In this document: piece by piece, positions 3,568 to 64,000 of the stretch
Layout: each line of letters begins with the position of its first letter
Numbering within the stretch: position 1 is the first letter of the stretch
Sequence record: PQ805430.1
From: Escherichia phage EK8
DNA length: 64,000 nucleotides
Reading direction: 5' to 3' (one strand)
Notes under the pieces: model-generated
Seen by the model: the letters and a program-made list of their open reading frames with translations, nothing else
Database searches by the model: none
What the model was told of the DNA's origin: nothing
Position numbers and translations under genes: made by a program

Positions 3568-3900
3568 TTAGATTTTTGGCAGCTTACCCGCCATAGCTTG
3601 CAGTACAAATACGGCCATATCTGATGCACGATCATCAGAAAGGTCAGATAATTGGAATCCCCAGTCTTCATCCCATTCATCAGCAATACGCTGAACTTCG
3701 GCCAGACCCGCCTGCACCATATCCGGGGTCGGAGTGGTGAACGCTTCTTCTAACTGTTGAATACGCTGAACGAGGGCGAGAGCCAGATTATCTCCAGTAA
3801 GGTCGCGCCAAAGGTGGCCATTACGATGAGCAACGAAATGAGCACCGCAATCGTGAGAGACTTCATATTCGCCTACCTTCACAATGGTTTTGGTTGTCAT
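3568..3900 (-). CDS. hypothetical protein (110 aa)
   Basis: ORF in co-directional operon, abuts neighbours. Confidence 0.5.
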   Translation of the reverse strand: MTTKTIVKVGEYEVSHDCGAHFVAHRNGHLWRDLTGDNLALALVQRIQQLEEAFTTPTPDMVQAGLAEVQRIADEWDEDWGFQLSDLSDDRASDMAVFVLQAMAGKLPKI

Positions 3901-4424
3901 ACAAACACTCCTAAAGTGTTCTTGGTCGCACGCTGGAACAGCATATCCAGGTTATGCGCATGTTTGGTTTTAAACTCGGCTACCTGCTCATCACTGAGAG
4001 GCTGGAAGTGTTCCAGGTCGAGTTCCTCTTTGATGCCAATCTTCCGCATTTGTTCATGCAGAAGGCTCGGCAATAGTTGGTACAGGTGAGTTGCACTTTC
4101 ACACCGGCCTACGGCAGCGATCAGTGCAGCATTAACGTAGGCACCTTCCTCATCCAGAATCTTCCGGCGTTTTGCCATCAGTTCGTGCATTTCGGGATAC
4201 AGGAATTTGGCCAGTGTCTGGGGGAAACGTACCGGTTGCGATTCGAACCGGAATACTTCACCCCCGAACGTAAACGTTAATAACGGCGACTTTCTCGCTT
4301 CCTGGTTTCGCTGGGCAATCGACATGATCTTCTCATCGAAGTAGTCAATCGCCCCCTGAAACATGTAACGGTGCAATAGCTTCACCACAAGCTGGATATC
4401 TTTGGTTGTCAGGTCTTTGATCAT
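3897..4424 (-). CDS. hypothetical protein (175 aa)
   Basis: ORF, 4-nt overlaps with both neighbours. Confidence 0.5.
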   Translation of the reverse strand: MIKDLTTKDIQLVVKLLHRYMFQGAIDYFDEKIMSIAQRNQEARKSPLLTFTFGGEVFRFESQPVRFPQTLAKFLYPEMHELMAKRRKILDEEGAYVNAALIAAVGRCESATHLYQLLPSLLHEQMRKIGIKEELDLEHFQPLSDEQVAEFKTKHAHNLDMLFQRATKNTLGVFV

Positions 4425-5776
4425 CAGTACAGATCCCCAGTAAGAAATAGCTGCTTACGGGCACGAGTGCAGGCCACATACAGAAGCCGCATACGGATTT
4501 CAGTGTCCACACAATACCCGATATCAGCCAGGTCAATATAAACACGTCGGAAGGTGGAACCCTGTGACTTGTAGACTGTCTGGGCATAGACCGGGCGTAA
4601 GTCTACCCAGGTGTCTTTCACCTTACGCATCTGGTGCAGATAGGCTTCGGCTGCTTTAGGCTCCGGGGTATTCTCATACTCCCGGTACAGTCGGTTGATG
4701 ATTTTGGAGATGGCCTTATGGTCATGTGGCATGAAGAACGTTCGTTCGTTCTCGTTGTTCATGTACACCCAATAGCCAGGCTCTCCATGCTGAACATCCT
4801 CTTCGAGGGCACTGATATAAACCAGGCCATCAGTACGGATGCCACCAGTGCCTTTCTTGCCAGCCACGTAGTGGTTGTTGATCGCATAATCCCCGGCCTG
4901 AAAGTCACGGCTACCGGTGATGATTCTGTTCATGCCTTTGTTGTAGGCTTGAACCCGGTTGTTACGAAAGGCCAGGAATTTGCTGGTGCTAAAGATCCAG
5001 TCGTCGGACGACATATCCGCCAGCATTACCCGGTCGAACTGAGGACGTGGCATCCACACGATGTGTTTCCCGTCGATAGGACAGGGCGGGATACGCCAGT
5101 CCTTCGCCAGAATACGCTTACGCAGTTCCACGCTGAGTTTGAAGATGGGCGTATCAGTATCAAAACGCTCCACGATCTTAAGCTCAGCTTTACGGAAGCC
5201 AGATTCGAATGCAGGCATCGACTTGGCATCGGCATTCTTCAACTGAGCAGGATCACCAACAAAGATAACTTTCGTATCCTTGCTGATTTTCTTCTTAATC
5301 CAGTCGAATAATTCCTCGTCGATATAGCTCGCCTCATCAATGATGAGGATGCACTTACCGGCCTTGAAATCGTATTTCCGGTCGGCCAGTCTGTCCTTCC
5401 TGGGATTGTTGGGATCCGGTGCCATAGTCAGCCCCAGATAGCTGTGAATAGTTTTCACCTCTGGATTCATGACAGTAATGTCATCACCAGTCACCGACGC
5501 ATCCAGGCCACGGAGTTGAATCTCCATAGCCTCACATGCTTTATTGGTGGTGGCGGTGAAATTGATAGGCAGACCGGTTTTACCCTTCAAACCCAGCAGT
5601 CGCCGGGTCTTATGGAAGTCATGAAGGGTACGCACGAAGTGCTTTAGCACGAATGTCTTACCGGTTCCCCCGGCACCCTCCAGAACCATAAACTGTTCTG
5701 TGGAGCTACCGAGGAACCCGTGCATTATCTGAATGGCCGATTCCTGATCGGCATTAAGTTTTACGTCTTCGGACAT
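4424..5776 (-). CDS. SF1 DNA helicase (Dda/RecD-like)
   Basis: Walker A GAGGTGKT, Walker B IIDEASY, VGDPAQL, YKSQGSTF, ACTRAR motifs. Confidence 0.75.
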   Translation of the reverse strand: MSEDVKLNADQESAIQIMHGFLGSSTEQFMVLEGAGGTGKTFVLKHFVRTLHDFHKTRRLLGLKGKTGLPINFTATTNKACEAMEIQLRGLDASVTGDDITVMNPEVKTIHSYLGLTMAPDPNNPRKDRLADRKYDFKAGKCILIIDEASYIDEELFDWIKKKISKDTKVIFVGDPAQLKNADAKSMPAFESGFRKAELKIVERFDTDTPIFKLSVELRKRILAKDWRIPPCPIDGKHIVWMPRPQFDRVMLADMSSDDWIFSTSKFLAFRNNRVQAYNKGMNRIITGSRDFQAGDYAINNHYVAGKKGTGGIRTDGLVYISALEEDVQHGEPGYWVYMNNENERTFFMPHDHKAISKIINRLYREYENTPEPKAAEAYLHQMRKVKDTWVDLRPVYAQTVYKSQGSTFRRVYIDLADIGYCVDTEIRMRLLYVACTRARKQLFLTGDLY

Positions 5777-8193: not shown

Positions 8194-9234
8194 TTAATGC
8201 CAGAGTTCTTTGCTGTTACGAGCGATCCAGTCCTTCATCGCTTCATGCTGGATGAGTGAATCGTCACGCGCCATGATGTGACGGAATGCGATTACCTGGT
8301 ACTCCATCAGCATACGCTCGATGTACGGCACCAGTTTATCGATGTTGTCCTTATTGGCGTGCTGAGCCATTGAACCGGCTACAGCGTAAACCAGCGACGG
8401 ATTATCATCGCTTTCCGGGCAACGGGCTTTCAGCGGGTCTGCCAGAATGTCAGCCAGCTTCGGCACCTGGTCGAAGATTTTACAGAATGCAATAAATTCA
8501 GCACCTACACCAGATGAGATACAGCCAGCCACCAGCGGCAGGTCAGCATCAGTTACCGGTTCGCCACGGATCAGCTTATCCAGGAACATCCAGGTACGCG
8601 GAGCAGCGAAGGTCAGGTCGTCGTGGTCAGGCTTGAAGTGATGCACATAGTCCGGTTTGAACTCCAGAAACGCAGCGATACGATAATCGATATTCTGCGT
8701 CAGGGCATACTTCATGAAGCAATCCAGGTTGGTATACACCTGGAAGTTGATCATACGAGACTGCAACGGAGTTGGTAACGGGTTAACGATGGCACCATCG
8801 TCTTCCATGTTACCGGCAGCGGCCAGGAGTGCATGGGAGTGCAGCTTACGCTGGCCTACCATTTTATCCAGGATCAGCTTGAATGCAGCAGCCTGTACGG
8901 ACGGAGCCGCAGACGGCAGTTCATCCAGGAATACCAGCCAGCCTTTGTAGCCTTCGGGGATAGAATCCCCTTCGACCGGGAATACGTCGAACGGTACATA
9001 CTCCGCAATGTTGCGGGCACCGGACGTGTTGAAGTATGGCAGACCGTTCATGTCAGCAGGGTCATACGTGCTCAGACGCACGTCAATGACCTTGAGGCTG
9101 AACTTTTCTGCGATGGTGCGAATGATATCGGATTTACCGATGGCAGGTGATCCATGCAGCATAGGCACCAGACGTTTTTTGAGCACACGTTCTACGAACG
9201 GGATGGAGTGATCCAGACGGACTTGGGTTGTCAT
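8194..9234 (-). CDS. MoxR-like AAA+ ATPase
   Basis: P-loop LHGSPAIGKS, Walker B LVFLDE; classic partner of vWA proteins. Confidence 0.65.
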   Translation of the reverse strand: MTTQVRLDHSIPFVERVLKKRLVPMLHGSPAIGKSDIIRTIAEKFSLKVIDVRLSTYDPADMNGLPYFNTSGARNIAEYVPFDVFPVEGDSIPEGYKGWLVFLDELPSAAPSVQAAAFKLILDKMVGQRKLHSHALLAAAGNMEDDGAIVNPLPTPLQSRMINFQVYTNLDCFMKYALTQNIDYRIAAFLEFKPDYVHHFKPDHDDLTFAAPRTWMFLDKLIRGEPVTDADLPLVAGCISSGVGAEFIAFCKIFDQVPKLADILADPLKARCPESDDNPSLVYAVAGSMAQHANKDNIDKLVPYIERMLMEYQVIAFRHIMARDDSLIQHEAMKDWIARNSKELWH

Positions 9235-9236
9235 AA

Positions 9237-10004
9237 CTATACCTGTAAGAAGTAACGGTGAATGAGTTGATTCACAACACGGACGCCAATAGCATTCGTC
9301 TTGTAGACCATTTTAAGTTGGGCCTGCACTTCGTTGATGACCTTCTTCTTGTACTGGCTTAAGTTCTTGCCAGTACCGAACGCCTTAATGTACTCGTCCA
9401 GTAAACGAGACTCCGGCACCAGGTCGAGAAGGGATTGCAGGGACGGTCGGATGGTACTGAAATGCAGTGCCACACGTCCTAAAAATTCTGTACGCACACC
9501 CAGTTCACGCATACGGTCGTGGGTGAGGTTAGCTTCGCCATTGAAAGCACCAGCGAACACGAATAATACGTGCTCAACGGAGACTTTCTCGTACTTGCCA
9601 TAGTCACCAAAGACACTGGCGGTACTGCTTTCCAGCATGGTGAGGAACTCGTTCTGGACACCGGCCAGAGCTTCGTGAGTCTCACCGCCTACGCCATTGG
9701 TAAACAGCTTATCGAACTCGTCTACGAAGATTACGATGCCGTTTACCCCGACCATTCCCCGGAGGGGAGCCAGGGCTTTGGATAACGAGTTACCCGATAC
9801 ACCTTCTTTGGTTAAACCAGCAGCGTTGACTTCCAGCATCTGAATTTCACGCTCTTTGGCGAGAGTCGAGATCAGGTGAGATTTACCAGATCCTGATTCA
9901 CCCGACAGGATGAAGTGAGGGCGGATCGCACCTTTAGATTTAGTGTAAGCATCAAAGACGCGGCCTAATACGCCCGCAACTTCTTCTTGTTCTGGGAGAA
10001 TCAT
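9237..10004 (-). CDS. AAA+-type ATPase (255 aa)
   Basis: Walker A GESGSGKSHL, Walker B IVIFVDEFD. Confidence 0.55.
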   Translation of the reverse strand: MILPEQEEVAGVLGRVFDAYTKSKGAIRPHFILSGESGSGKSHLISTLAKEREIQMLEVNAAGLTKEGVSGNSLSKALAPLRGMVGVNGIVIFVDEFDKLFTNGVGGETHEALAGVQNEFLTMLESSTASVFGDYGKYEKVSVEHVLFVFAGAFNGEANLTHDRMRELGVRTEFLGRVALHFSTIRPSLQSLLDLVPESRLLDEYIKAFGTGKNLSQYKKKVINEVQAQLKMVYKTNAIGVRVVNQLIHRYFLQV

Positions 10005-10075
10005 AGATACCTCGAATTAGGTTCAGGTGCCTACTCACGGTCGGCAGGGACTTTCATATTTCAGCACCAGAGGGA

Positions 10076-10468
10076 TTAACGACAGTCGAACGCAATACCG
10101 AATTGCTTCTGGCCTTCGTAGCGGAATACGCCATAGAAGCCCGCATACTGGCCTGTGCCTTTGCTGAACAGCAGACCAATGTTGTTGTAGCCCTGTATAC
10201 CAGAAGGCTTCTGGATGATGAGCTGAGGCGACACCATTGCTACTTTGCCTTTCGCGTTAATCACGGTGAATCGGTCACCCTGATCACGGATGAAGGAGAT
10301 GGCCAACGGCTGATCCGGTTTACCCGTTTCAGTGCGAACAGCCTGACACCAGAGATCAGTAGCCGGGGCGGAGGCAACCGCCGTAACCTGCGTAGCAGGT
10401 GTAGGCTGGTTGACGACGCACCCAGCAAGAGAAAAAACAGCGACAGCAACGAGAATAAGTTTTTTCAT
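10076..10468 (-). CDS. lipoprotein (130 aa)
   Basis: signal peptide MKKLILVAVAVFSLAGC with lipobox LAGC. Confidence 0.6.
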   Translation of the reverse strand: MKKLILVAVAVFSLAGCVVNQPTPATQVTAVASAPATDLWCQAVRTETGKPDQPLAISFIRDQGDRFTVINAKGKVAMVSPQLIIQKPSGIQGYNNIGLLFSKGTGQYAGFYGVFRYEGQKQFGIAFDCR

Positions 10469-10638
10469 TTCTTAACTTCCGGTACGAATTGCATTACACA
10501 ATTCTGGTTTCGAGGTATGTTGAGTTCGCACTCATCACGTTTTTGTGTAAGTTCACTAGTTACTGTCCAATAGGTCAGCAAACCCATAAGAAATGCTCCC
10601 AACACTAAACCAATAACAAATTCCGGTTTATGATTCAT
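10465..10638 (-). CDS. small membrane protein (57 aa, below ORF-track cut-off)
   Basis: hand translation MNHKPEFVIGLVLGAFLMGLLTYWTV...; AAGGGG RBS; stop overlaps the lipoprotein start. Confidence 0.35.
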   Translation of the reverse strand: MNHKPEFVIGLVLGAFLMGLLTYWTVTSELTQKRDECELNIPRNQNCVMQFVPEVKK

Positions 10639-10960
10639 CTTTGATGCCCCTTAAACCAGGGATTGAGTTAAGCCGGGAGATGTATTCACCGATGTAAAAC
10701 AACTCATTAATTTCATCTTGCGTACAAATTAATTTATTGCCTGCATCAGTGATGATTTCCCAGGTTGGTATGAATACTAAAGCCGGGATACCATTGCCTT
10801 CACGCAGAACGAACGCATTACCGCAACGGCGACCATCTTTAGTGAAAAGCTGGCGACCAACCTCTACTACGCCATCAGGCTTATAAGCAGTGGCCCATTC
10901 GGGTAAAACTTCACGTTTGAATTGCTCATTTTGATCTTCAAAGTAATCTTCAAAGCTCAT
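10628..10960 (-). CDS. hypothetical protein (110 aa)
   Basis: ORF in operon context. Confidence 0.5.
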   Translation of the reverse strand: MSFEDYFEDQNEQFKREVLPEWATAYKPDGVVEVGRQLFTKDGRRCGNAFVLREGNGIPALVFIPTWEIITDAGNKLICTQDEINELFYIGEYISRLNSIPGLRGIKDES

Positions 10961-11319
10961 ACCTGCTCCTTCTTGGCACGCTGCATTCGTTTACAATTCT
11001 CTTTCTGGCTTACCAGTTCGAGGTGTTCCGGATTACAGCAGAGACGGTTACGGCATTTATGATCCACCTGCTTATTGCCGGGGATGTAGCCGAAGTAATG
11101 GGTAGCCATGACGATGTGAGTAGCACACGTCTGGCTGTTAATACTGATACGGCCATAACCTCCACCACGTCCTTCGCCCGAAGTGGGGCCAGTCCAGATA
11201 TGACAAGGGGATACGACACCGTTAACGCGATAACCGCAGTCACGGATATCCACCCGCTTCATGATACGGTCGCAGATTTCCTGACGACGATCAGGATGGG
11301 GATGTTTTTTCGTGATCAC
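10957..11319 (-). CDS. HNH homing endonuclease
   Basis: VDHKCRNRLCCNPEHLE HNH motif with Cys/His zinc ligands. Confidence 0.7.
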   Translation of the reverse strand: MITKKHPHPDRRQEICDRIMKRVDIRDCGYRVNGVVSPCHIWTGPTSGEGRGGGYGRISINSQTCATHIVMATHYFGYIPGNKQVDHKCRNRLCCNPEHLELVSQKENCKRMQRAKKEQV

Positions 11320-11570
11320 TTTGAATCCAGAAATAGTAGGGCTTGCTCCAGATATAACCGAAGGTCAAGCAGTTCGTCATGATAGAGGAAGAGGCTATGA
11401 AACTTGTCGTGATACATACTGCGCCCATGTTCAGTAGTCGAGTAATACTCTTCATGTAGTTCCAGTTTGTACCTGGAATCCTTCCTCCTGGTTTCTTTGG
11501 TGATTGTTACCGTCACCGTACCATTGGTATGACGACGTTCGATCACTTGGGTCATACTGTCCATAAACAC
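11316..11570 (-). CDS. hypothetical protein (84 aa)
   Basis: ORF, 4-nt overlap with HNH gene. Confidence 0.45.
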   Translation of the reverse strand: MFMDSMTQVIERRHTNGTVTVTITKETRRKDSRYKLELHEEYYSTTEHGRSMYHDKFHSLFLYHDELLDLRLYLEQALLFLDSK

Positions 11571-11627
11571 TCCTGACTGTCTTACTCCCGAAGTGGGGAG
11601 ATCGACTCATTGAGTGCCCGGAGGGCA

Positions 11628-11942
11628 CTACTCTTCGGGTTCAGCAATTTCCACTGAGAAGCCCTGCTGGGCTAACAGTGTGGCTACTTCACCGGTTTCG
11701 AGATAACGGGTAGGCTCGCAGTTCATGGTACGGCCTGCGGGCAGGTAGATGGTTTTGCCCACTTCTTTGATGAGGGTGTTGTGATACATCATCACCAGAG
11801 AGTGAACAGTGTTCTCATCGTAGGGATACAGATGAGCTTTGATTTCGCTCAGGGCTTCGTCCAGGTTATTCGCTGTCCTGAACATCGGCACCGGAGCCAG
11901 AGGGATCTTTGAAAGCATTTGCATATACCTTAGCTGCAACAC
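11628..11942 (-). CDS. hypothetical protein (104 aa; start probably at an internal Met)
   Basis: ORF; annotated start overlaps upstream gene by 77 nt. Confidence 0.4.
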   Translation of the reverse strand: MLQLRYMQMLSKIPLAPVPMFRTANNLDEALSEIKAHLYPYDENTVHSLVMMYHNTLIKEVGKTIYLPAGRTMNCEPTRYLETGEVATLLAQQGFSVEIAEPEE

Positions 11943-12459
11943 GACGCATTAAGGCAATGGCCTGTTCCTGCGTCATATCTTCCAGTTGTGAGTCGATATC
12001 CAGAGCACGTTCAAGCTGCTCAGGGGCGTAGATTTCTTTGTCGTGGAGAATGTCCAGCATTGCATGGCCAGACTTCTTCACATACTGGCTTAGGTAGCCC
12101 CAGAAAGCCGGTGTAGGCTGTCCTGACGGCGTAAAGAAGCCAGACAATACACGAGCTTCCAGACCAGCATAATCCGCATCGGATAATGTTTTATGGGCTT
12201 TAGCCAGTTGACAATTAGATTCTTTAAACAGGTCTTCTTGCAGACGTAAACCCATCTCCAGGGGAGTTTCCTGTTTACGTTTAGGGGCTAATAATTCATC
12301 GTACAGTTTGTCAATAGAAGTCTGGCCTTCATATGCCATCTGAACTTTGACAGCACGTACTGTAGCGACACGGAGGCCATACATGTTGGCTACCTGATAC
12401 TCGCTGTACTGCAACAAAGCACGGCGAACCTTGTTTTCCATATCTTTGGTAAGTTGCAT
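11866..12459 (-). CDS. hypothetical protein (197 aa)
   Basis: first ORF after a 516-bp noncoding spacer. Confidence 0.5.
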   Translation of the reverse strand: MQLTKDMENKVRRALLQYSEYQVANMYGLRVATVRAVKVQMAYEGQTSIDKLYDELLAPKRKQETPLEMGLRLQEDLFKESNCQLAKAHKTLSDADYAGLEARVLSGFFTPSGQPTPAFWGYLSQYVKKSGHAMLDILHDKEIYAPEQLERALDIDSQLEDMTQEQAIALMRRVAAKVYANAFKDPSGSGADVQDSE

Positions 12460-12604
12460 TTTAATCTCCAGGGTTAAATTTAAGCCTATAGATAACCTGA
12501 TTTGGTATATAGGATCGTTTAGTCAGACTGTCTCAAATGACTGTCTTCAACATATAGGTTTAAAACTTACGACACATACTATGTAAGGTCTAAAACTGTA
12601 TGCT

Positions 12605-12635
12605 CAAAACTAAAAACCCCTCACAAGGAGGGGTT
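12605..12635 (-). terminator. rho-independent terminator candidate
   Basis: aacccctc-acaag-gaggggtt hairpin with T-rich tract on minus strand. Confidence 0.4.
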
Positions 12636-12875
12636 TCTATTGCCATGTTTATCGTTGATTACAGGATCTGGAATCCTGCGCGTCTCAACCCTAGTGGGTC
12701 AGTCGCCGATTTCACTTTTACGACCAGAGGATCGTCTGTATGAACTACATCTGATACATGGCGGTACAGATGCAGCAACGATAAGATAAACCAGATTAGC
12801 ATCAGGTATCCTCATCGTAAGGTGAATCACACTATGTAATTCACATTGGATTATATAACCATAATACAATGTAAA

Positions 12876-12912
12876 CTAAGAAAAAGTAGGACACCCTAAG
12901 ATGGGGTGTCCT
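12876..12912 (-). terminator. rho-independent terminator candidate
   Basis: 9-bp stem aggacaccc/gggtgtcct then ctttttc on minus strand, just after the 81-aa gene. Confidence 0.45.
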
Positions 12913-12975
12913 TTCAGAAAGTAAAAACTAAGTTATGCAGACGCAGAGCGTCATTCATTAAACGCACGGAGTGCG

Positions 12976-13221
12976 TCATTTAAGTTTAAAACGGAGCTTC
13001 TGGGTTCCACCCTGTTCATCGAATACGGACTGCACTTCCACTACACCCTCGTGATCCAGTACCAGTACCTTGTCAGCTTTATTGGTGAACTCACCCTCGA
13101 TTTCAATGACCTTCAAGCCTAACAGCTTCTTGGTTTTGAACTCGTTCAGCTTATCTTCGGTGGTATAGATGACTCTGGTTTGTTGTGTAATATGTTGATA
13201 ACCGCGAAATGGGTCGGCCAT
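12976..13221 (-). CDS. small protein, paralog-family member (81 aa)
   Basis: carries family motif TEDKLNEFKTKKLLGLKV. Confidence 0.5.
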   Translation of the reverse strand: MADPFRGYQHITQQTRVIYTTEDKLNEFKTKKLLGLKVIEIEGEFTNKADKVLVLDHEGVVEVQSVFDEQGGTQKLRFKLK

Positions 13222-61062: not shown

Positions 61063-63888
61063 ATGTGTGATAAAGATACTTGCAATGACGCCTCTTGCTG
61101 CGGTGAGTGTGAACCGTGGAACTGCTTAGAACAGCAAGTCAACGACATTCTTGCCACCAAAGAGGATCAACTCCAGGGCTATGTGGACGAAGCCAAAGAT
61201 GCAGCCGCTGAGTCGAAAGCCTCGTCAGAGGCGTCGGCTCAGTCGGCTGCGGAGTCGAAGGAGTTCCGCGACGAAGCAGAAGTGGCAGCAAGCACGGCAG
61301 TAGCCGCAGAAAGTGTTGTACTCGGTGTAGCAAACACGTTACAAGATACCGCAGATAAGCTCGAACAGATTGCTGATGAGCTTGGTACTGCTATTGCTGG
61401 TGTTGCTGTATCCTCATGGTTCTATACTACGGTATCTGAAAACCAGACGGTTATTCCTGTACCGGCTTATAAGAATGCTGTGGACGTGCAGTCGATTTAT
61501 ATCGAAGGTGCTCGTCAATCCCCATTCCGTGGGTTCGAGTTCGATAAAACTGCCATGACTATTACGCTGGCTGAACCTCTGCCGTTGGGTTTAGAAATTG
61601 AAATTATCCTGGGTACTTATAACTCAGATAATCCTAATAATTTTGCTCAAACTCTGGCTTCCAACAATGGTGCAAGTCTTGTTGGTACTTCCAATGGTCT
61701 TACAGTACAAGAGAATCTGACTGATCTAGTAGAACAGGATGCGGACTTTAAAGAAACCTTTAAAGCTCACTGGGTTAACAGCCAGGCAGATAAAAAAGAA
61801 ATTCGTTTTGATCTACCATTACTATTTCCAGATTATGATGCAATTTTAGCCGCACATCCTGACTGGACGTTTATCTATCCAGGGTCATTCTGCATCGGGG
61901 ACGATGGCAATATCTATATTGCGTATGGCCCAAGTAACAACGCAGCAACGGAACGTTTCGTTGTAGTTTACTCAGGCAATGGTGATTACTTAGGGTATCT
62001 CCAGACTAATAATGGAGGCACTGGGGTAAATGGTTCTGCAGTATCCGAAGGGATTATCGTAACCAATTACTATGGTTCACTTAAGTTATTCCTGGGGTCT
62101 TACGATGGTAACTTAGCTGAGTTTGATATCTCAGCAGTGACCTATGGCACTATGATTAGTTATTCAGCTTTGCATCAGGTAGGTCTATATAACCAGTTCT
62201 CCTTCCACAATGGAATGTGGGCAGTTGAGCAGGCCATCCCATCGTTGGGCATTAACCGCCAACGTAATGCTATTGCATATTTCAACTCCGCATTTGCATT
62301 AACTGGTTTCACGGAATTTTCTCCGTATGATGCTGGATACATCACGTCAACTACTACTGATGACGGGTCACTTCAAACTAAGCGACAAGCAATCTGTTTA
62401 GCTCCCGGTGTTTTGATCATGGCATTTGGTGGTGTTTACATTACAGGAACAACTGTAGAAGCGCCTACTAATTATCAGGGGGTAAAAGCATTTAGCACTG
62501 ATGGGCATAAAATGGTAGAGGCAGTAATACCCCCTACTGATTTTATTAATGTTTTGGATGCTAAAGGGTTAACGACCTCTCGTATAGAAAATGAGGGTGT
62601 TTGCTACGCAAAAGGTGAAGTATTCACCTTATGGATTTATAACAATAGAACTACCCCAAATGCGTATACTAACGGCATCCTGATTACTAAAGAATATTCG
62701 AACTCCCCGGATTTGGATTTTTCTGAGGCGGTTACGGTATCCCCAGGTTACGACACTGTTCGAATGGCTTCTGGGGTTTATCCTCGCATTCTCGCAGGCG
62801 ACAGACTCTATAATCCGTTGACTGGTGCTGCCATGACTTCAATGACAGAAGTATTGGACTTTATGCGCCTGTCTGGACAAAAAGCAGTTACTATTTATAC
62901 GTCAAGCACTGGTCTTACAGACCTGGCTGGGGTTGCTTATCCAATTGGGGTAGAACTCCACATTAGCAACCTAAATAACCAGAGTTTTTCTATAGATCAG
63001 ACCGGGCCAACTACCCGTAAAACTGTGCGAGTAACTTACGATACCTCCGGCTATACCATAGTCACAGCAGCTTCTGGTTTGGAGACTTACCGTTTAACTC
63101 TAAACAATACTGACTCTGGTTCTTTAACTCAGGGGCGTATTGCTGCCAGAGCTTTTGGTGGTAGTACACTCACTGAGGCAGAGCAGATTCTTGTTCTGGA
63201 TCAGCAGAGTTCTGCAACTGCTCACTCTCTTCTTATCGGGGGTGGTTCCTCAGTCTTTAAGAGTGCGACTTCTGTAAGTTTTGTGACTAACTCATCACCT
63301 GCCAGTTTAGGTGGTACTATCCGTTGGCGTTTGGATGACACATCCCTTCGTCCGTATGCAGATAACAGCTATAACTTGGGTAACCCATCGTTACGTGTGG
63401 CTCAAGTATTCGCAGCAATTGGTACTATTAATACGTCTGATTCCCGTGAAAAAACTGATCCTTCTGAAATATCGGATGATATCCTTGATGCCTGGGGCGA
63501 TGTACAGGTGATCACCTATAAGTGGTTAGCTTCTATCGCATCTAAAGGGGAGGACTCTGCTCGTTGGCATTTCGGGGTAATTGCCCAACAGGTTCGTGAC
63601 ACGTTCATCAAGCATGGATTGGATGGTACTGCCTTTGGCCTGCTTTGTTACGACGAGTGGGAAGATGAATATGAACCTGAATTCACTGATGAGATTATCA
63701 CTGTTAATATCGACGGTGTGGATACCGAAGTTACACGTCAAGTGGCAACCGGTAACACGTTGCTTGTTAGAGCTGCCGGTAATCGTTGGGGCATTCGTCC
63801 CGATCAGTGTTTTTGGTTAGAAGCCGCTTATCAGCGTCGTCGTGTAAGCCGTATAGAAGAACGCTTACTCGCACTTGAATCCAAATAA
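61063..63888 (+). CDS. tail fibre / tailspike with C-terminal intramolecular chaperone (peptidase S74-like) domain
   Basis: 941 aa; C-terminal TSDSREK motif resembling the SDxxxK autoproteolytic site of S74 chaperone domains; AAGGAG RBS; Cys-rich N-terminus. Confidence 0.55.
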   Translation: MCDKDTCNDASCCGECEPWNCLEQQVNDILATKEDQLQGYVDEAKDAAAESKASSEASAQSAAESKEFRDEAEVAASTAVAAESVVLGVANTLQDTADKLEQIADELGTAIAGVAVSSWFYTTVSENQTVIPVPAYKNAVDVQSIYIEGARQSPFRGFEFDKTAMTITLAEPLPLGLEIEIILGTYNSDNPNNFAQTLASNNGASLVGTSNGLTVQENLTDLVEQDADFKETFKAHWVNSQADKKEIRFDLPLLFPDYDAILAAHPDWTFIYPGSFCIGDDGNIYIAYGPSNNAATERFVVVYSGNGDYLGYLQTNNGGTGVNGSAVSEGIIVTNYYGSLKLFLGSYDGNLAEFDISAVTYGTMISYSALHQVGLYNQFSFHNGMWAVEQAIPSLGINRQRNAIAYFNSAFALTGFTEFSPYDAGYITSTTTDDGSLQTKRQAICLAPGVLIMAFGGVYITGTTVEAPTNYQGVKAFSTDGHKMVEAVIPPTDFINVLDAKGLTTSRIENEGVCYAKGEVFTLWIYNNRTTPNAYTNGILITKEYSNSPDLDFSEAVTVSPGYDTVRMASGVYPRILAGDRLYNPLTGAAMTSMTEVLDFMRLSGQKAVTIYTSSTGLTDLAGVAYPIGVELHISNLNNQSFSIDQTGPTTRKTVRVTYDTSGYTIVTAASGLETYRLTLNNTDSGSLTQGRIAARAFGGSTLTEAEQILVLDQQSSATAHSLLIGGGSSVFKSATSVSFVTNSSPASLGGTIRWRLDDTSLRPYADNSYNLGNPSLRVAQVFAAIGTINTSDSREKTDPSEISDDILDAWGDVQVITYKWLASIASKGEDSARWHFGVIAQQVRDTFIKHGLDGTAFGLLCYDEWEDEYEPEFTDEIITVNIDGVDTEVTRQVATGNTLLVRAAGNRWGIRPDQCFWLEAAYQRRRVSRIEERLLALESK

Positions 63889-63938
63889 TATAAGCCTCTT
63901 GGGGGGCTTTTCCATTGAGAATAACAACAGGAGCTACT

Positions 63939-64000
63939 ATGGAATCTCAATTCCGCCAACCAAAAAAAGTTATTAATGTCGAAGTTAATAAACAGAGTAT
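63939..64000 (+). CDS. hypothetical protein (partial, runs off window end)
   Basis: AGGAG RBS then ATG at 63939; MESQFRQPKKVINVEVNKQS... Confidence 0.3.
   Translation, partial: MESQFRQPKKVINVEVNKQS

What the first reader, a model, noticed from the sequence alone, without database searches (positions are those of the whole stretch)
10076..10638. Lipoprotein plus overlapping small membrane protein in the middle region: superinfection-exclusion or spanin-like candidate
A 130-aa lipoprotein with a clear lipobox (LAGC) is translationally coupled to an upstream 57-aa single-pass membrane protein that falls below the ORF-track cut-off. The sizes are inverted relative to a classical i-spanin/o-spanin pair, and the module lies among replication genes rather than with lysis genes. 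A receptor-masking or entry-blocking lipoprotein, as with T5 Llp or the Cor type, is therefore the more plausible reading.
Basis: inference. Interest (0 to 1): 0.45.

Follow-up and report, generated by a model that had tools for sequence, protein, structure and literature searches.

The report
Phage lipoprotein and small membrane protein
Two real, conserved genes of an N4-like phage encode a lipid-anchored beta-barrel protein and a tiny membrane protein; they are not part of the lysis machinery, their function is unproven (blocking of re-infection is the best guess), and both families are already catalogued.

Summary
ORF 10076-10468(-) encodes a 130-aa protein with an invariant lipobox (LAGC, Cys17). 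ORF 10465-10638(-) encodes a 57-aa single-helix membrane protein. The two overlap by ATGA.

The window is a permuted view of a ~74-kb N4-like phage (Schitoviridae, near Cbunavirus). Both genes lie in its middle-gene block, just upstream of the AAA/gp24-like ATPases.

The lipoprotein belongs to a small, apparently phage-restricted family (phrog_26640). It has a ~20-residue disordered tether and a confidently modelled 93-residue all-beta domain with two invariant cysteines. It shows no homology to T5 Llp, Cor, spanins or MliC/PliC beyond the signal peptide. Some homologues (Klebsiella phage KP8) carry an ordinary signal peptide instead of a lipobox.

The membrane protein belongs to a wider family (phrog_7508, G7C gp17.1) with an invariant C-terminal motif, ECELNIPRNQNC.M.F.PE.

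The two families are inherited largely independently, so they are not an obligate pair. Relatives carry canonical spanins in a lysis cassette that maps just outside the window.

An entry-blocking or envelope-protecting role is plausible from anatomy and context only. Interest is low to moderate.

The parts
10076..10468 (-). Lipoprotein gene (130 aa; phrog_26640 family)
   Evidence: ORF. phrog_26640 'lipoprotein' at E=5.5e-46. 19 homologues with invariant C17, C41 and C129. dN/dS 0.18-0.43.
10418..10468 (-). Signal peptide with lipobox L-A-G-C (lipobox 10418-10429; Cys17 at 10418-10420)
   Evidence: Read directly from the sequence. Pfam LPAM_1 at E=0.004 over residues 1-17, below the curated cut-off. 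L14, G16 and C17 are invariant, and no family member has Asp at +2.
10358..10417 (-). Pro/Thr/Ala-rich tether, residues 18-37, predicted disordered
   Evidence: AF2 pLDDT is below 50 for residues 1-22 and averages about 51 and 69 for residues 21-30 and 31-40.
10079..10357 (-). All-beta globular domain, residues 38-130, with invariant C41 and C129 and the motif SKGxGxYxGFYG
10465..10638 (-). Small bitopic membrane protein gene (57 aa; phrog_7508, G7C gp17.1 family)
   Evidence: ORF. phrog_7508 at E=6.7e-20. 72 clusters and 96 phage records. AF2 gives a single helix over residues 5-40.
10561..10620 (-). Predicted transmembrane segment FVIGLVLGAFLMGLLTYWTV (residues 7-26)
   Evidence: Read from the sequence. 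G10 and G14 are invariant. The segment lies within the AF2 helix 5-40, pLDDT 84-92.
10477..10533 (-). Invariant C-terminal motif E-C-E-L-N-I-P-R-N-Q-N-C-V-M-Q-F-V-P-E (residues 36-54), a C-x9-C loop
   Evidence: 17 invariant columns across 40 homologues (G10, G14 and 15 in this stretch); the stretch is far better conserved than the transmembrane segment. Residues 41-57 are unstructured in the model, pLDDT about 50-60.
10628..10960 (-). Context: 110-aa cytoplasmic ORF (phrog_9905), overlapping both neighbours
   Evidence: Homologues sit beside the lipoprotein gene in Kc283, L021 and L012.
10957..11319 (-). Context: HNH endonuclease
   Evidence: Pfam HNH_3 at E=4e-17. In CB4 this gene directly abuts the lipoprotein gene.
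8194..10004 (-). Context: AAA ATPase (9237-10004) and N4 gp24-like ATPase (8194-9234), the conserved downstream anchor of the slot
   Evidence: Synteny.

Best explanation
These are two separately inherited accessory envelope genes. They sit in the variable slot of an N4-like phage's middle-gene block, between the HNH endonuclease or decoration-protein region and the gp24-like ATPase.

Shown or strongly indicated:
- The 130-aa product is exported, lipidated at Cys17 and, lacking an Asp at +2, sorted by Lol to the outer membrane.
- A ~20-residue flexible tether then holds a compact 93-residue beta domain in the periplasm. Its two invariant cysteines (C41, C129) probably form a disulfide.
- The 57-aa product is a single-helix inner-membrane protein. 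Its best conserved part is a 19-residue C-terminal cysteine-loop peptide.
- Neither protein is a spanin.

Inferred:
- Both are made before late genes, from the polycistronic middle transcript.
- Each acts by binding a conserved, periplasm-exposed host envelope component.
- The most likely outcome is that the infected cell or its debris becomes refractory to further phage attack. That would be superinfection exclusion or progeny protection, analogous in logic (not in ancestry) to T5 Llp, Cor, or T4 Imm/Sp.
- Their adjacency here reflects a shared hot spot for envelope-directed genes. It does not imply an obligate complex.
For: - Gene reality, lipobox and overlap.
- N4-like identity and position in the middle region.
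- No sigma-70-like promoter in 9000-13000 (0 found, 5.2 expected), and no terminator-like site on the coding (minus) strand within or directly flanking the four overlapping genes; the one site at 9490-9514 lies inside the AAA ATPase gene. This fits one long transcript.
- Structure: tether plus high-confidence beta domain; single helix plus unstructured conserved tail.
- The family is small and was found only in phage records or phage-like contigs wherever its context was examined.
- Purifying selection.
- The slot collects envelope proteins in relatives:
  - phiA41 has a second, unrelated lipoprotein.
  - G7C gp17.3 and Ea9-2 gp34 are secreted proteins.
  - KP8 and P184 have 2-TM proteins.
  - N4 has gp18 (Pfam GP17 'superinfection exclusion'), gp19 (a membrane protein) and gp20 (an SPFH protein with a lipobox).
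- Canonical spanins lie elsewhere in relatives.
Against: - No homology to any characterised exclusion protein. Llp matches only the signal peptide, the Cor hit is lost on the mature protein, and PADLOC and NCBIfam give nothing.
- The fold is a generic small beta-barrel with no informative neighbour.
- The gene is about 50 kb from the tailspike, unlike llp, which sits next to its receptor-binding protein gene.
- The family spans phages of Pectobacterium, Kosakonia, Erwinia and Klebsiella, which have different host ranges. That argues against masking of a strain-specific receptor.
- Some homologues are soluble periplasmic proteins. Outer-membrane anchoring is therefore not required, which fits an Llp-like mechanism poorly.
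- The topology of the 57-aa protein is ambiguous. Positive charges slightly favour a cytoplasmic C-terminus, whereas the conserved Cys pair favours a periplasmic one.
- No experiment exists for any family member.
Confidence: 0.4

Rival explanations
1. Two-component spanin: the 57-aa protein acts as i-spanin and the lipoprotein as o-spanin, and they fuse the inner and outer membranes at lysis.
For: A membrane protein gene is followed by an overlapping lipoprotein gene. There is a weak PHROG 'Rz-like spanin' hit at E=0.086.
Against: - Only about 31 residues follow the transmembrane helix, with no long coiled coil.
- The lipoprotein is a 113-aa mature globular beta domain, not a short Pro-rich o-spanin.
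- The spanin hit covers only the signal peptide and disappears for the mature protein.
- The two genes are inherited independently.
- Non-lipidated homologues exist.
- The genes lie in the middle-gene block.
- CB1-like phages and N4 have spanins in their lysis cassettes. By synteny that cassette falls in the ~10 kb missing from the window.
Confidence: 0.03
2. Periplasmic inhibitor of a peptidoglycan hydrolase, working like MliC/PliC/ACP/PhiA or T4 Spackle. The beta-barrel would bind and block a muralytic enzyme: the tail lysozyme of a superinfecting phage, leaked endolysin, or a host transglycosylase.
For: - Both families come as lipoprotein and soluble periplasmic forms.
- E. coli MliC, like this family, has one Cys near the start of the mature domain and one near the C-terminus, and an [FW]-S-K-G motif.
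- The GenBank annotation 'adhesin' for the Kc283 homologue may echo the ACP resemblance, but the paper gives no basis for it.
Against: - None of 25 family members hits Pfam MliC, even at E up to 10.
- Profile-profile hhalign of the barrel against an MliC/PliC alignment gives 0.2% probability. Against E. coli MliC only the signal peptides align.
- The shared SKG motif may be coincidence.
Confidence: 0.12
3. Lysis-timing (lysis-inhibition) component: a periplasmic or membrane sensor or antiholin-like factor that delays lysis after superinfection, as T4 RI does.
For: N4 shows lysis inhibition whose trigger is unknown. The window phage carries rIIA/rIIB-like genes. The products are predicted to be envelope-located (periplasmic or membrane) and made before late genes.
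Against: - N4 itself lacks the lipoprotein family, and its equivalent slot holds unrelated genes.
- The N4 study places all rapid-lysis mutations in the pinholin and endolysin, and argues against periplasmic regulation.
- There is no similarity to RI or RIII.
Confidence: 0.07
4. The two proteins form one functional complex. The invariant C-terminal peptide of the membrane protein would dock onto the lipoprotein barrel, linking the inner and outer membranes for a non-lytic purpose.
For: - ATGA-coupled adjacency recurs in a second lineage, Erwinia phage MIF8 gp9/gp8.
- In KP8-type Klebsiella phages the soluble homologue lies two genes downstream of the membrane gene.
- The conserved tail is predicted to be unstructured on its own.
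Against: - The tail motif is invariant in about 85 phage records that lack the barrel family, and the barrel is conserved in 16 records with no match to the membrane gene.
- The partner of each is therefore more likely a host protein.
- Co-folding could not be run.
Confidence: 0.1

Closest known systems
phrog_26640 'lipoprotein' (putative lipoproteins of Cbunavirus phages CB1, CB3, CB4, phiA41, Nepra, Possum and Kc283)
   Same: Full-length homology (E=5.5e-46; 50-61% identity to the isolates). Same lipobox, same two further cysteines, and the same position directly upstream of the AAA/gp24-like ATPases.
   Different: Here, in the near-identical contig L017 and in Erwinia phage MIF8, the small membrane gene precedes it; in the Pectobacterium and Kosakonia phages it does not. 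No member has a tested function.
phrog_7508 (G7C gp17.1; KP8 'transmembrane helical domain protein')
   Same: Same length, a single helix, and the invariant ECELNIPRNQNC.M.F.PE tail. Same slot between the decoration-protein/HNH region and gp24.
   Different: In most members the downstream gene is something else, either a 2-TM protein or an unrelated secreted protein. Function is unknown.
T5 Llp (lytic conversion lipoprotein) and the Cor family
   Same: A small phage-encoded outer-membrane lipoprotein with a probable disulfide, made before late genes by a lytic phage. The proposed logic, binding an envelope component from the periplasmic side, is the same.
   Different: No sequence similarity beyond the signal peptide and no fold match. 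About twice the size. Not adjacent to a receptor-binding protein gene. Soluble homologues exist.
Rz/Rz1-type two-component spanins (lambda Rz/Rz1, N4 gp60/gp60a, CB4 gp061)
   Same: A membrane protein gene followed by an overlapping lipoprotein gene.
   Different: The sizes are inverted, there is no periplasmic coiled coil, the lipoprotein is globular, and the genes are in the middle rather than the late block. The two genes are inherited independently, and true spanins are present elsewhere in relatives.
MliC/PliC/ACP/PhiA periplasmic lysozyme inhibitors
   Different: No profile-level homology, and the fold match is no better than to unrelated barrels.
N4 gp19-gp20 (membrane protein plus SPFH protein with a lipobox) in the same genomic slot
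   Same: An overlapping membrane-protein and lipoprotein gene pair in the syntenic slot upstream of gp24, next to gp18 (Pfam GP17).
   Different: The proteins are unrelated: gp19 has two transmembrane helices and gp20 is a 278-aa Band-7/SPFH protein.

Membership tests
Two-component spanin (i-spanin/o-spanin) | The i-spanin is a type II membrane protein with a long (about 100 aa or more) periplasmic coiled-coil domain | tested here: not met
   Only about 31 residues follow the transmembrane segment. AF2 gives a helix over residues 5-40 and then an unstructured tail.
Two-component spanin (i-spanin/o-spanin) | The o-spanin is a short (about 40-60 aa mature), Pro-rich, largely unstructured outer-membrane lipoprotein | tested here: not met
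   A lipobox is present, but the mature protein is 113 aa with a 93-residue beta domain at pLDDT above 90. Non-lipidated homologues exist.
Two-component spanin (i-spanin/o-spanin) | Located in or next to the lysis cassette and co-inherited as a pair | tested here: not met
   The genes lie in the middle-gene block. The two genes have independent distributions. Relatives have a spanin beside the holin and endolysin.
Two-component spanin (i-spanin/o-spanin) | Complements an Rz/Rz1 defect or is required for outer-membrane disruption | not testable with these tools
   This needs a lambda Rz/Rz1 amber complementation assay.
T5 Llp | Sequence or fold homology to Llp (PDB 8a60 chain B) | tested here: not met
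T5 Llp | Gene adjacent to the receptor-binding protein gene, and the product blocks that receptor | tested here: not met
   The gene lies about 50 kb from the tailspike at 61063-63888. Receptor blocking itself cannot be tested here.
Cor superinfection exclusion (phrog_1119) | Profile match over the mature protein | tested here: not met
   The full-length hit (E=3e-4) covers residues 1-47 only. The mature sequence gives no hit.
MliC/PliC lysozyme inhibitors (PF09864) | Pfam or profile match including the SxSGAxY and [ST]KG motifs | tested here: not met
   None of 25 members hits PF09864 at E up to 10. hhalign gives 0.2% probability.
MliC/PliC lysozyme inhibitors (PF09864) | Eight-stranded barrel fold | tested here: inconclusive
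phrog_26640 (Cbunavirus putative lipoprotein) | Full-length profile match, lipobox and conserved cysteines | tested here: met
   E=5.5e-46 over residues 1-130. C17, C41 and C129 are invariant.
phrog_7508 (G7C gp17.1-like membrane protein) | Profile match and the invariant C-terminal motif | tested here: met
   E=6.7e-20. The motif is invariant in 40 sequences.
Bacterial lipoprotein (Lgt/LspA/Lnt substrate, Lol-sorted to the outer membrane) | Lipobox [LVI][ASTVI][GAS]C after a positive n-region and a hydrophobic h-region, with no Asp at +2 | tested here: met
   MKKLILVAVAVFSLAGC-VV. No family member has Asp at +2. Actual lipidation and localisation cannot be tested here.

The most novel reading that the evidence does not exclude
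The G7C gp17.1-type membrane peptide is the constant element of a previously unrecognised envelope module of N4-like and some other podophages. In this reading its invariant disulfide-loop tail partners with interchangeable exported proteins: this beta-barrel lipoprotein, soluble barrels, other secreted proteins, or 2-TM proteins. The module would target a conserved periplasmic host machine, for example to exclude superinfecting phage or to sense superinfection for lysis inhibition. The beta-barrel family would then represent a new fold class of phage periplasmic effector or inhibitor.
Probability: 0.15. Interest if true: 0.6.

Novelty: new member of a known kind. Interest (0 to 1): 0.3.

Why it matters
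If the lipoprotein or the membrane peptide does block re-infection or protect progeny, it would be the first envelope-acting exclusion factor described for Schitoviridae. These phages are being developed against Pectobacterium, Klebsiella and Pseudomonas, so the finding would bear on cocktail design and cross-resistance. The near-invariant 19-residue tail of the membrane peptide, conserved across phages of several enterobacterial genera, points to a conserved host target worth identifying. As it stands, the finding is two catalogued hypothetical-protein families correctly recognised as envelope proteins, with no mechanism shown.

Tried and rejected
- Spanin reading: rejected on anatomy, location, independent inheritance and the presence of true spanins in relatives.
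- Cor, Rz-like, T6SS-immunity and other lipoprotein profile hits: all cover only the signal peptide. They vanish when the mature sequence is scanned.
- Llp homology: none.
- PADLOC: nothing.
- 'Pizza' designer beta-propeller hits in the PDB profile search: no single stretch passes the threshold, so they were treated as repeat or composition artefacts. The same applies to the cadherin-like repeat protein P0105.
- Cap15, OmpW and lipocalin fold hits: generic barrels with high rmsd. They were not taken as functional leads.
- AFDB50 fold search: the library was unavailable.
- Extending the window past 64000 to find the lysis cassette, using an exact 46-mer search in viral contigs: no match.
- Literature: no paper in the library addresses either family. 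The CB1 and Kc283 papers do not discuss the gene.

Full report
**What is there**

On the minus strand, ORF 10076-10468 encodes a 130-aa protein beginning MKKLILVAVAVFSLAGC. ORF 10465-10638 encodes a 57-aa protein, MNHKPEFVIGLVLGAFLMGLLTYWTVTSELTQKRDECELNIPRNQNCVMQFVPEVKK.

- The stop of the upstream gene overlaps the start of the downstream gene as ATGA.
- Shine-Dalgarno-like sequences precede both starts: AAGGGG 8 nt before the 57-aa ATG, and GGAAG 7 nt before the lipoprotein ATG.
- A six-frame scan for lipobox ORFs found this as the only convincing one in the 64-kb window.

One qualification applies. The HNH endonuclease gene (10957-11319), the 110-aa ORF (10628-10960), the 57-aa ORF and the lipoprotein gene all overlap in series. 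Start/stop overlap is thus a feature of the whole block and not a mark of this pair.

**Genomic setting**

The window is about 80% identical at the nucleotide level to Cbunavirus phages. These are N4-like Schitoviridae: Pectobacterium phages CB1/CB3/CB4, phiA41 and Nepra, and Kosakonia phage Kc283.

- Mapping on CB4 shows that the window is a permuted view of a ~74-kb genome. CB4 position 1 falls near window 23086.
- The segment equivalent to CB4 24.1-33.9 kb is missing from the window.
- The lipoprotein gene has a fixed position in all relatives, immediately upstream of an AAA ATPase and/or the N4 gp24-like ATPase in the middle-gene region.
- No sigma-70-like promoter occurs in 9000-13000 (0 found, 5.2 expected). 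No terminator-like site on the coding (minus) strand lies within or directly flanking the four overlapping genes; the one site at 9490-9514 is inside the AAA ATPase gene.
- These signals fit one long middle transcript made by the phage RNA polymerase II. That conclusion is inferred from established N4 biology.

**The lipoprotein family**

A search of 5.8 billion proteins found 19 homologues at 49-92% identity; those whose contigs were examined lie on phage-sized or phage-like contigs. An exhaustive profile search of 1.84 billion cluster representatives added only about 20 more clusters of 115-145 aa.

- Invariant features are the lipobox, C41, C129 and the motifs D-x-G-x-x-F, S-P-x-L and SKG-x-G-x-Y-x-G-F-Y-G.
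- No member has Asp at +2, so Lol should send these proteins to the outer membrane. This follows from established knowledge of lipoprotein sorting in Enterobacterales.
- dN/dS against relatives is 0.18-0.43.
- AlphaFold2 gives a disordered segment up to about residue 37 and a nine-strand all-beta domain over residues 38-130, with block means of pLDDT 92-96 from residue 41.
- The fold has no informative neighbour:
  - Foldseek against the PDB gives nothing below E=0.01.
  - Apart from the Possum homologue itself ('putative lipoprotein'), BFVD returns only uncharacterised phage proteins.
- Some members carry an ordinary signal peptide instead of a lipobox. Examples are P0111, P0112 and the 119-aa protein of Klebsiella phage KP8 (hhalign 97.4%, E=1e-11). 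Ten Klebsiella phage records carry the KP8 form.
- The lipid anchor is therefore dispensable for whatever the domain does.

**The 57-aa protein family**

This is phrog_7508, with at least 72 clusters and 96 phage records. It occurs in Gamaleyavirus (G7C gp17.1), Kaypoctavirus, Efbeekayvirus and Johnsonvirus, and also in the non-N4-like KBNP1711.

- The transmembrane part varies, but the C-terminal stretch ECELNIPRNQNC.M.F.PE is invariant across 40 sequences.
- AlphaFold2 predicts a single helix over residues 5-40 and an unstructured tail at pLDDT about 50-60.
- That pattern fits a docking peptide.
- The topology is unresolved. The Cys pair suggests a periplasmic tail, while the positive-inside rule slightly favours a cytoplasmic one (inference from the sequence).

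**Are they a module?**

- The ATGA-coupled pair recurs in the near-identical contig L017 and in Erwinia phage MIF8, as gp9/gp8.
- KP8 has the soluble homologue two genes downstream of the membrane gene.
- Against that, none of the 16 Pectobacterium and Kosakonia records carrying the lipoprotein appears among the matches to the membrane gene; CB4, phiA41 and Kc283 confirm its absence from the slot.
- About 85 records carry the membrane gene without the barrel family.
- Downstream of the membrane gene, other phages have unrelated exported or membrane proteins:
  - G7C gp17.2 and gp17.3.
  - Ea9-2 gp34, which is not homologous.
  - P184 gp39, a 2-TM protein.
- phiA41 has a second, unrelated lipoprotein in the slot.
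- N4 itself has gp18 (Pfam GP17), gp19 (2-TM) and gp20 (an SPFH protein with a lipobox) there.

The best reading is a hot spot that accumulates envelope-directed accessory genes, not an obligate two-gene system.

**Spanin**

The spanin reading is rejected for these reasons:

- The tail after the transmembrane helix is about 31 aa.
- The lipoprotein is globular.
- The PHROG spanin and Cor hits cover only the signal peptide, and they vanish for the mature sequence.
- CB1-like phages have an endolysin/holin/Rz-Rz1 cassette.
- N4 gp60/gp60a are experimentally confirmed spanins.

By synteny that cassette starts just beyond the window end. The window ends after the 941-aa tailspike at 61063-63888 and a terminator-like hairpin. 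This last point is inferred for this particular phage.

**Llp/Cor**

- T5 Llp matches only the signal peptide, at E=0.52.
- Cor is not matched by the mature protein.
- The gene is far from the tailspike.

Membership in these families is not met. A similar mode of action remains possible but untested.

**MliC/PliC lead**

**Verdict**

These are real, conserved and already catalogued genes ('putative lipoprotein' and 'hypothetical protein' in GenBank). The anatomy is clear, and the spanin role is excluded with good confidence. The function is inferred only: most probably an envelope-acting accessory role such as exclusion or progeny protection, at about 0.4. The literature searches found no study of either family.

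Noticed in passing
window ~23086 and window ends (1 and 64000): The window is a permuted view of a ~74-kb N4-like genome. The CB4 terminal-repeat start maps near window 23086. The part equivalent to CB4 24.1-33.9 kb (end of rIIB, DNA polymerase, lysis cassette) lies outside the window.
   Followed up: partly
window 61063-63888 (+), 63893-63912, 63940-64000: A 941-aa tailspike-like ORF is followed by a terminator-like hairpin. A new ORF then starts (MESQFRQPKKVINVEVNKQS...) that does not resemble the CB4 endolysin N-terminus. Short segments of this region match Escherichia, Salmonella and Shigella phages at high identity, which may hint at the host range.
   Followed up: partly
window 9000-13000: There are no sigma-70-like promoter matches where 5.2 are expected from shuffles, which suggests depletion of host-type promoters in the middle-gene block.
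   Followed up: no
L009 (phage N4) 1669-3093: N4 carries gp18 (Pfam GP17 'superinfection exclusion'), gp19 (a 2-TM protein) and gp20 (a 278-aa SPFH/Band-7 protein with a lipobox-like N-terminus, overlapping gp19 by 8 nt) in the syntenic slot. It is a non-homologous membrane-plus-lipoprotein pair.
   Followed up: partly
L001 (phiA41) 5451-5702: An unrelated 83-aa lipoprotein (VKKVIALLTACVVFALAGC...) lies immediately upstream of the lipoprotein homologue, so there are two lipoprotein genes in tandem.
   Followed up: no
L014 (KP8) 2165-2350; L005 (P184) 2683-2856; L009 (N4 gp23) 3739-3909: Small proteins of about 57-61 aa recur in this slot in several N4-like genera: a 2-TM protein in KP8 (as annotated) and similarly hydrophobic proteins in P184 and N4 (gp23). 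They may be another conserved envelope accessory family.
   Followed up: no
window 10628-10960 (-): The 110-aa ORF (phrog_9905) has no signal peptide or TM segment. Its homologues travel with the lipoprotein gene in several lineages, upstream in Kc283 and L021 and downstream in L012. Function is unknown.
   Followed up: no
PQ898399.1 Enterobacter phage SonariX (hits H17, H51): This 248-kb record carries N4-like segments, including the membrane-protein homologue. It may be a chimeric or concatenated assembly.
   Followed up: no
L015 (KBNP1711, Gordonclarkvirinae) 1977-2168: The phrog_7508 membrane peptide, with its invariant tail, also occurs in a non-Schitoviridae podophage. That implies horizontal spread of this small gene.
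   Followed up: no
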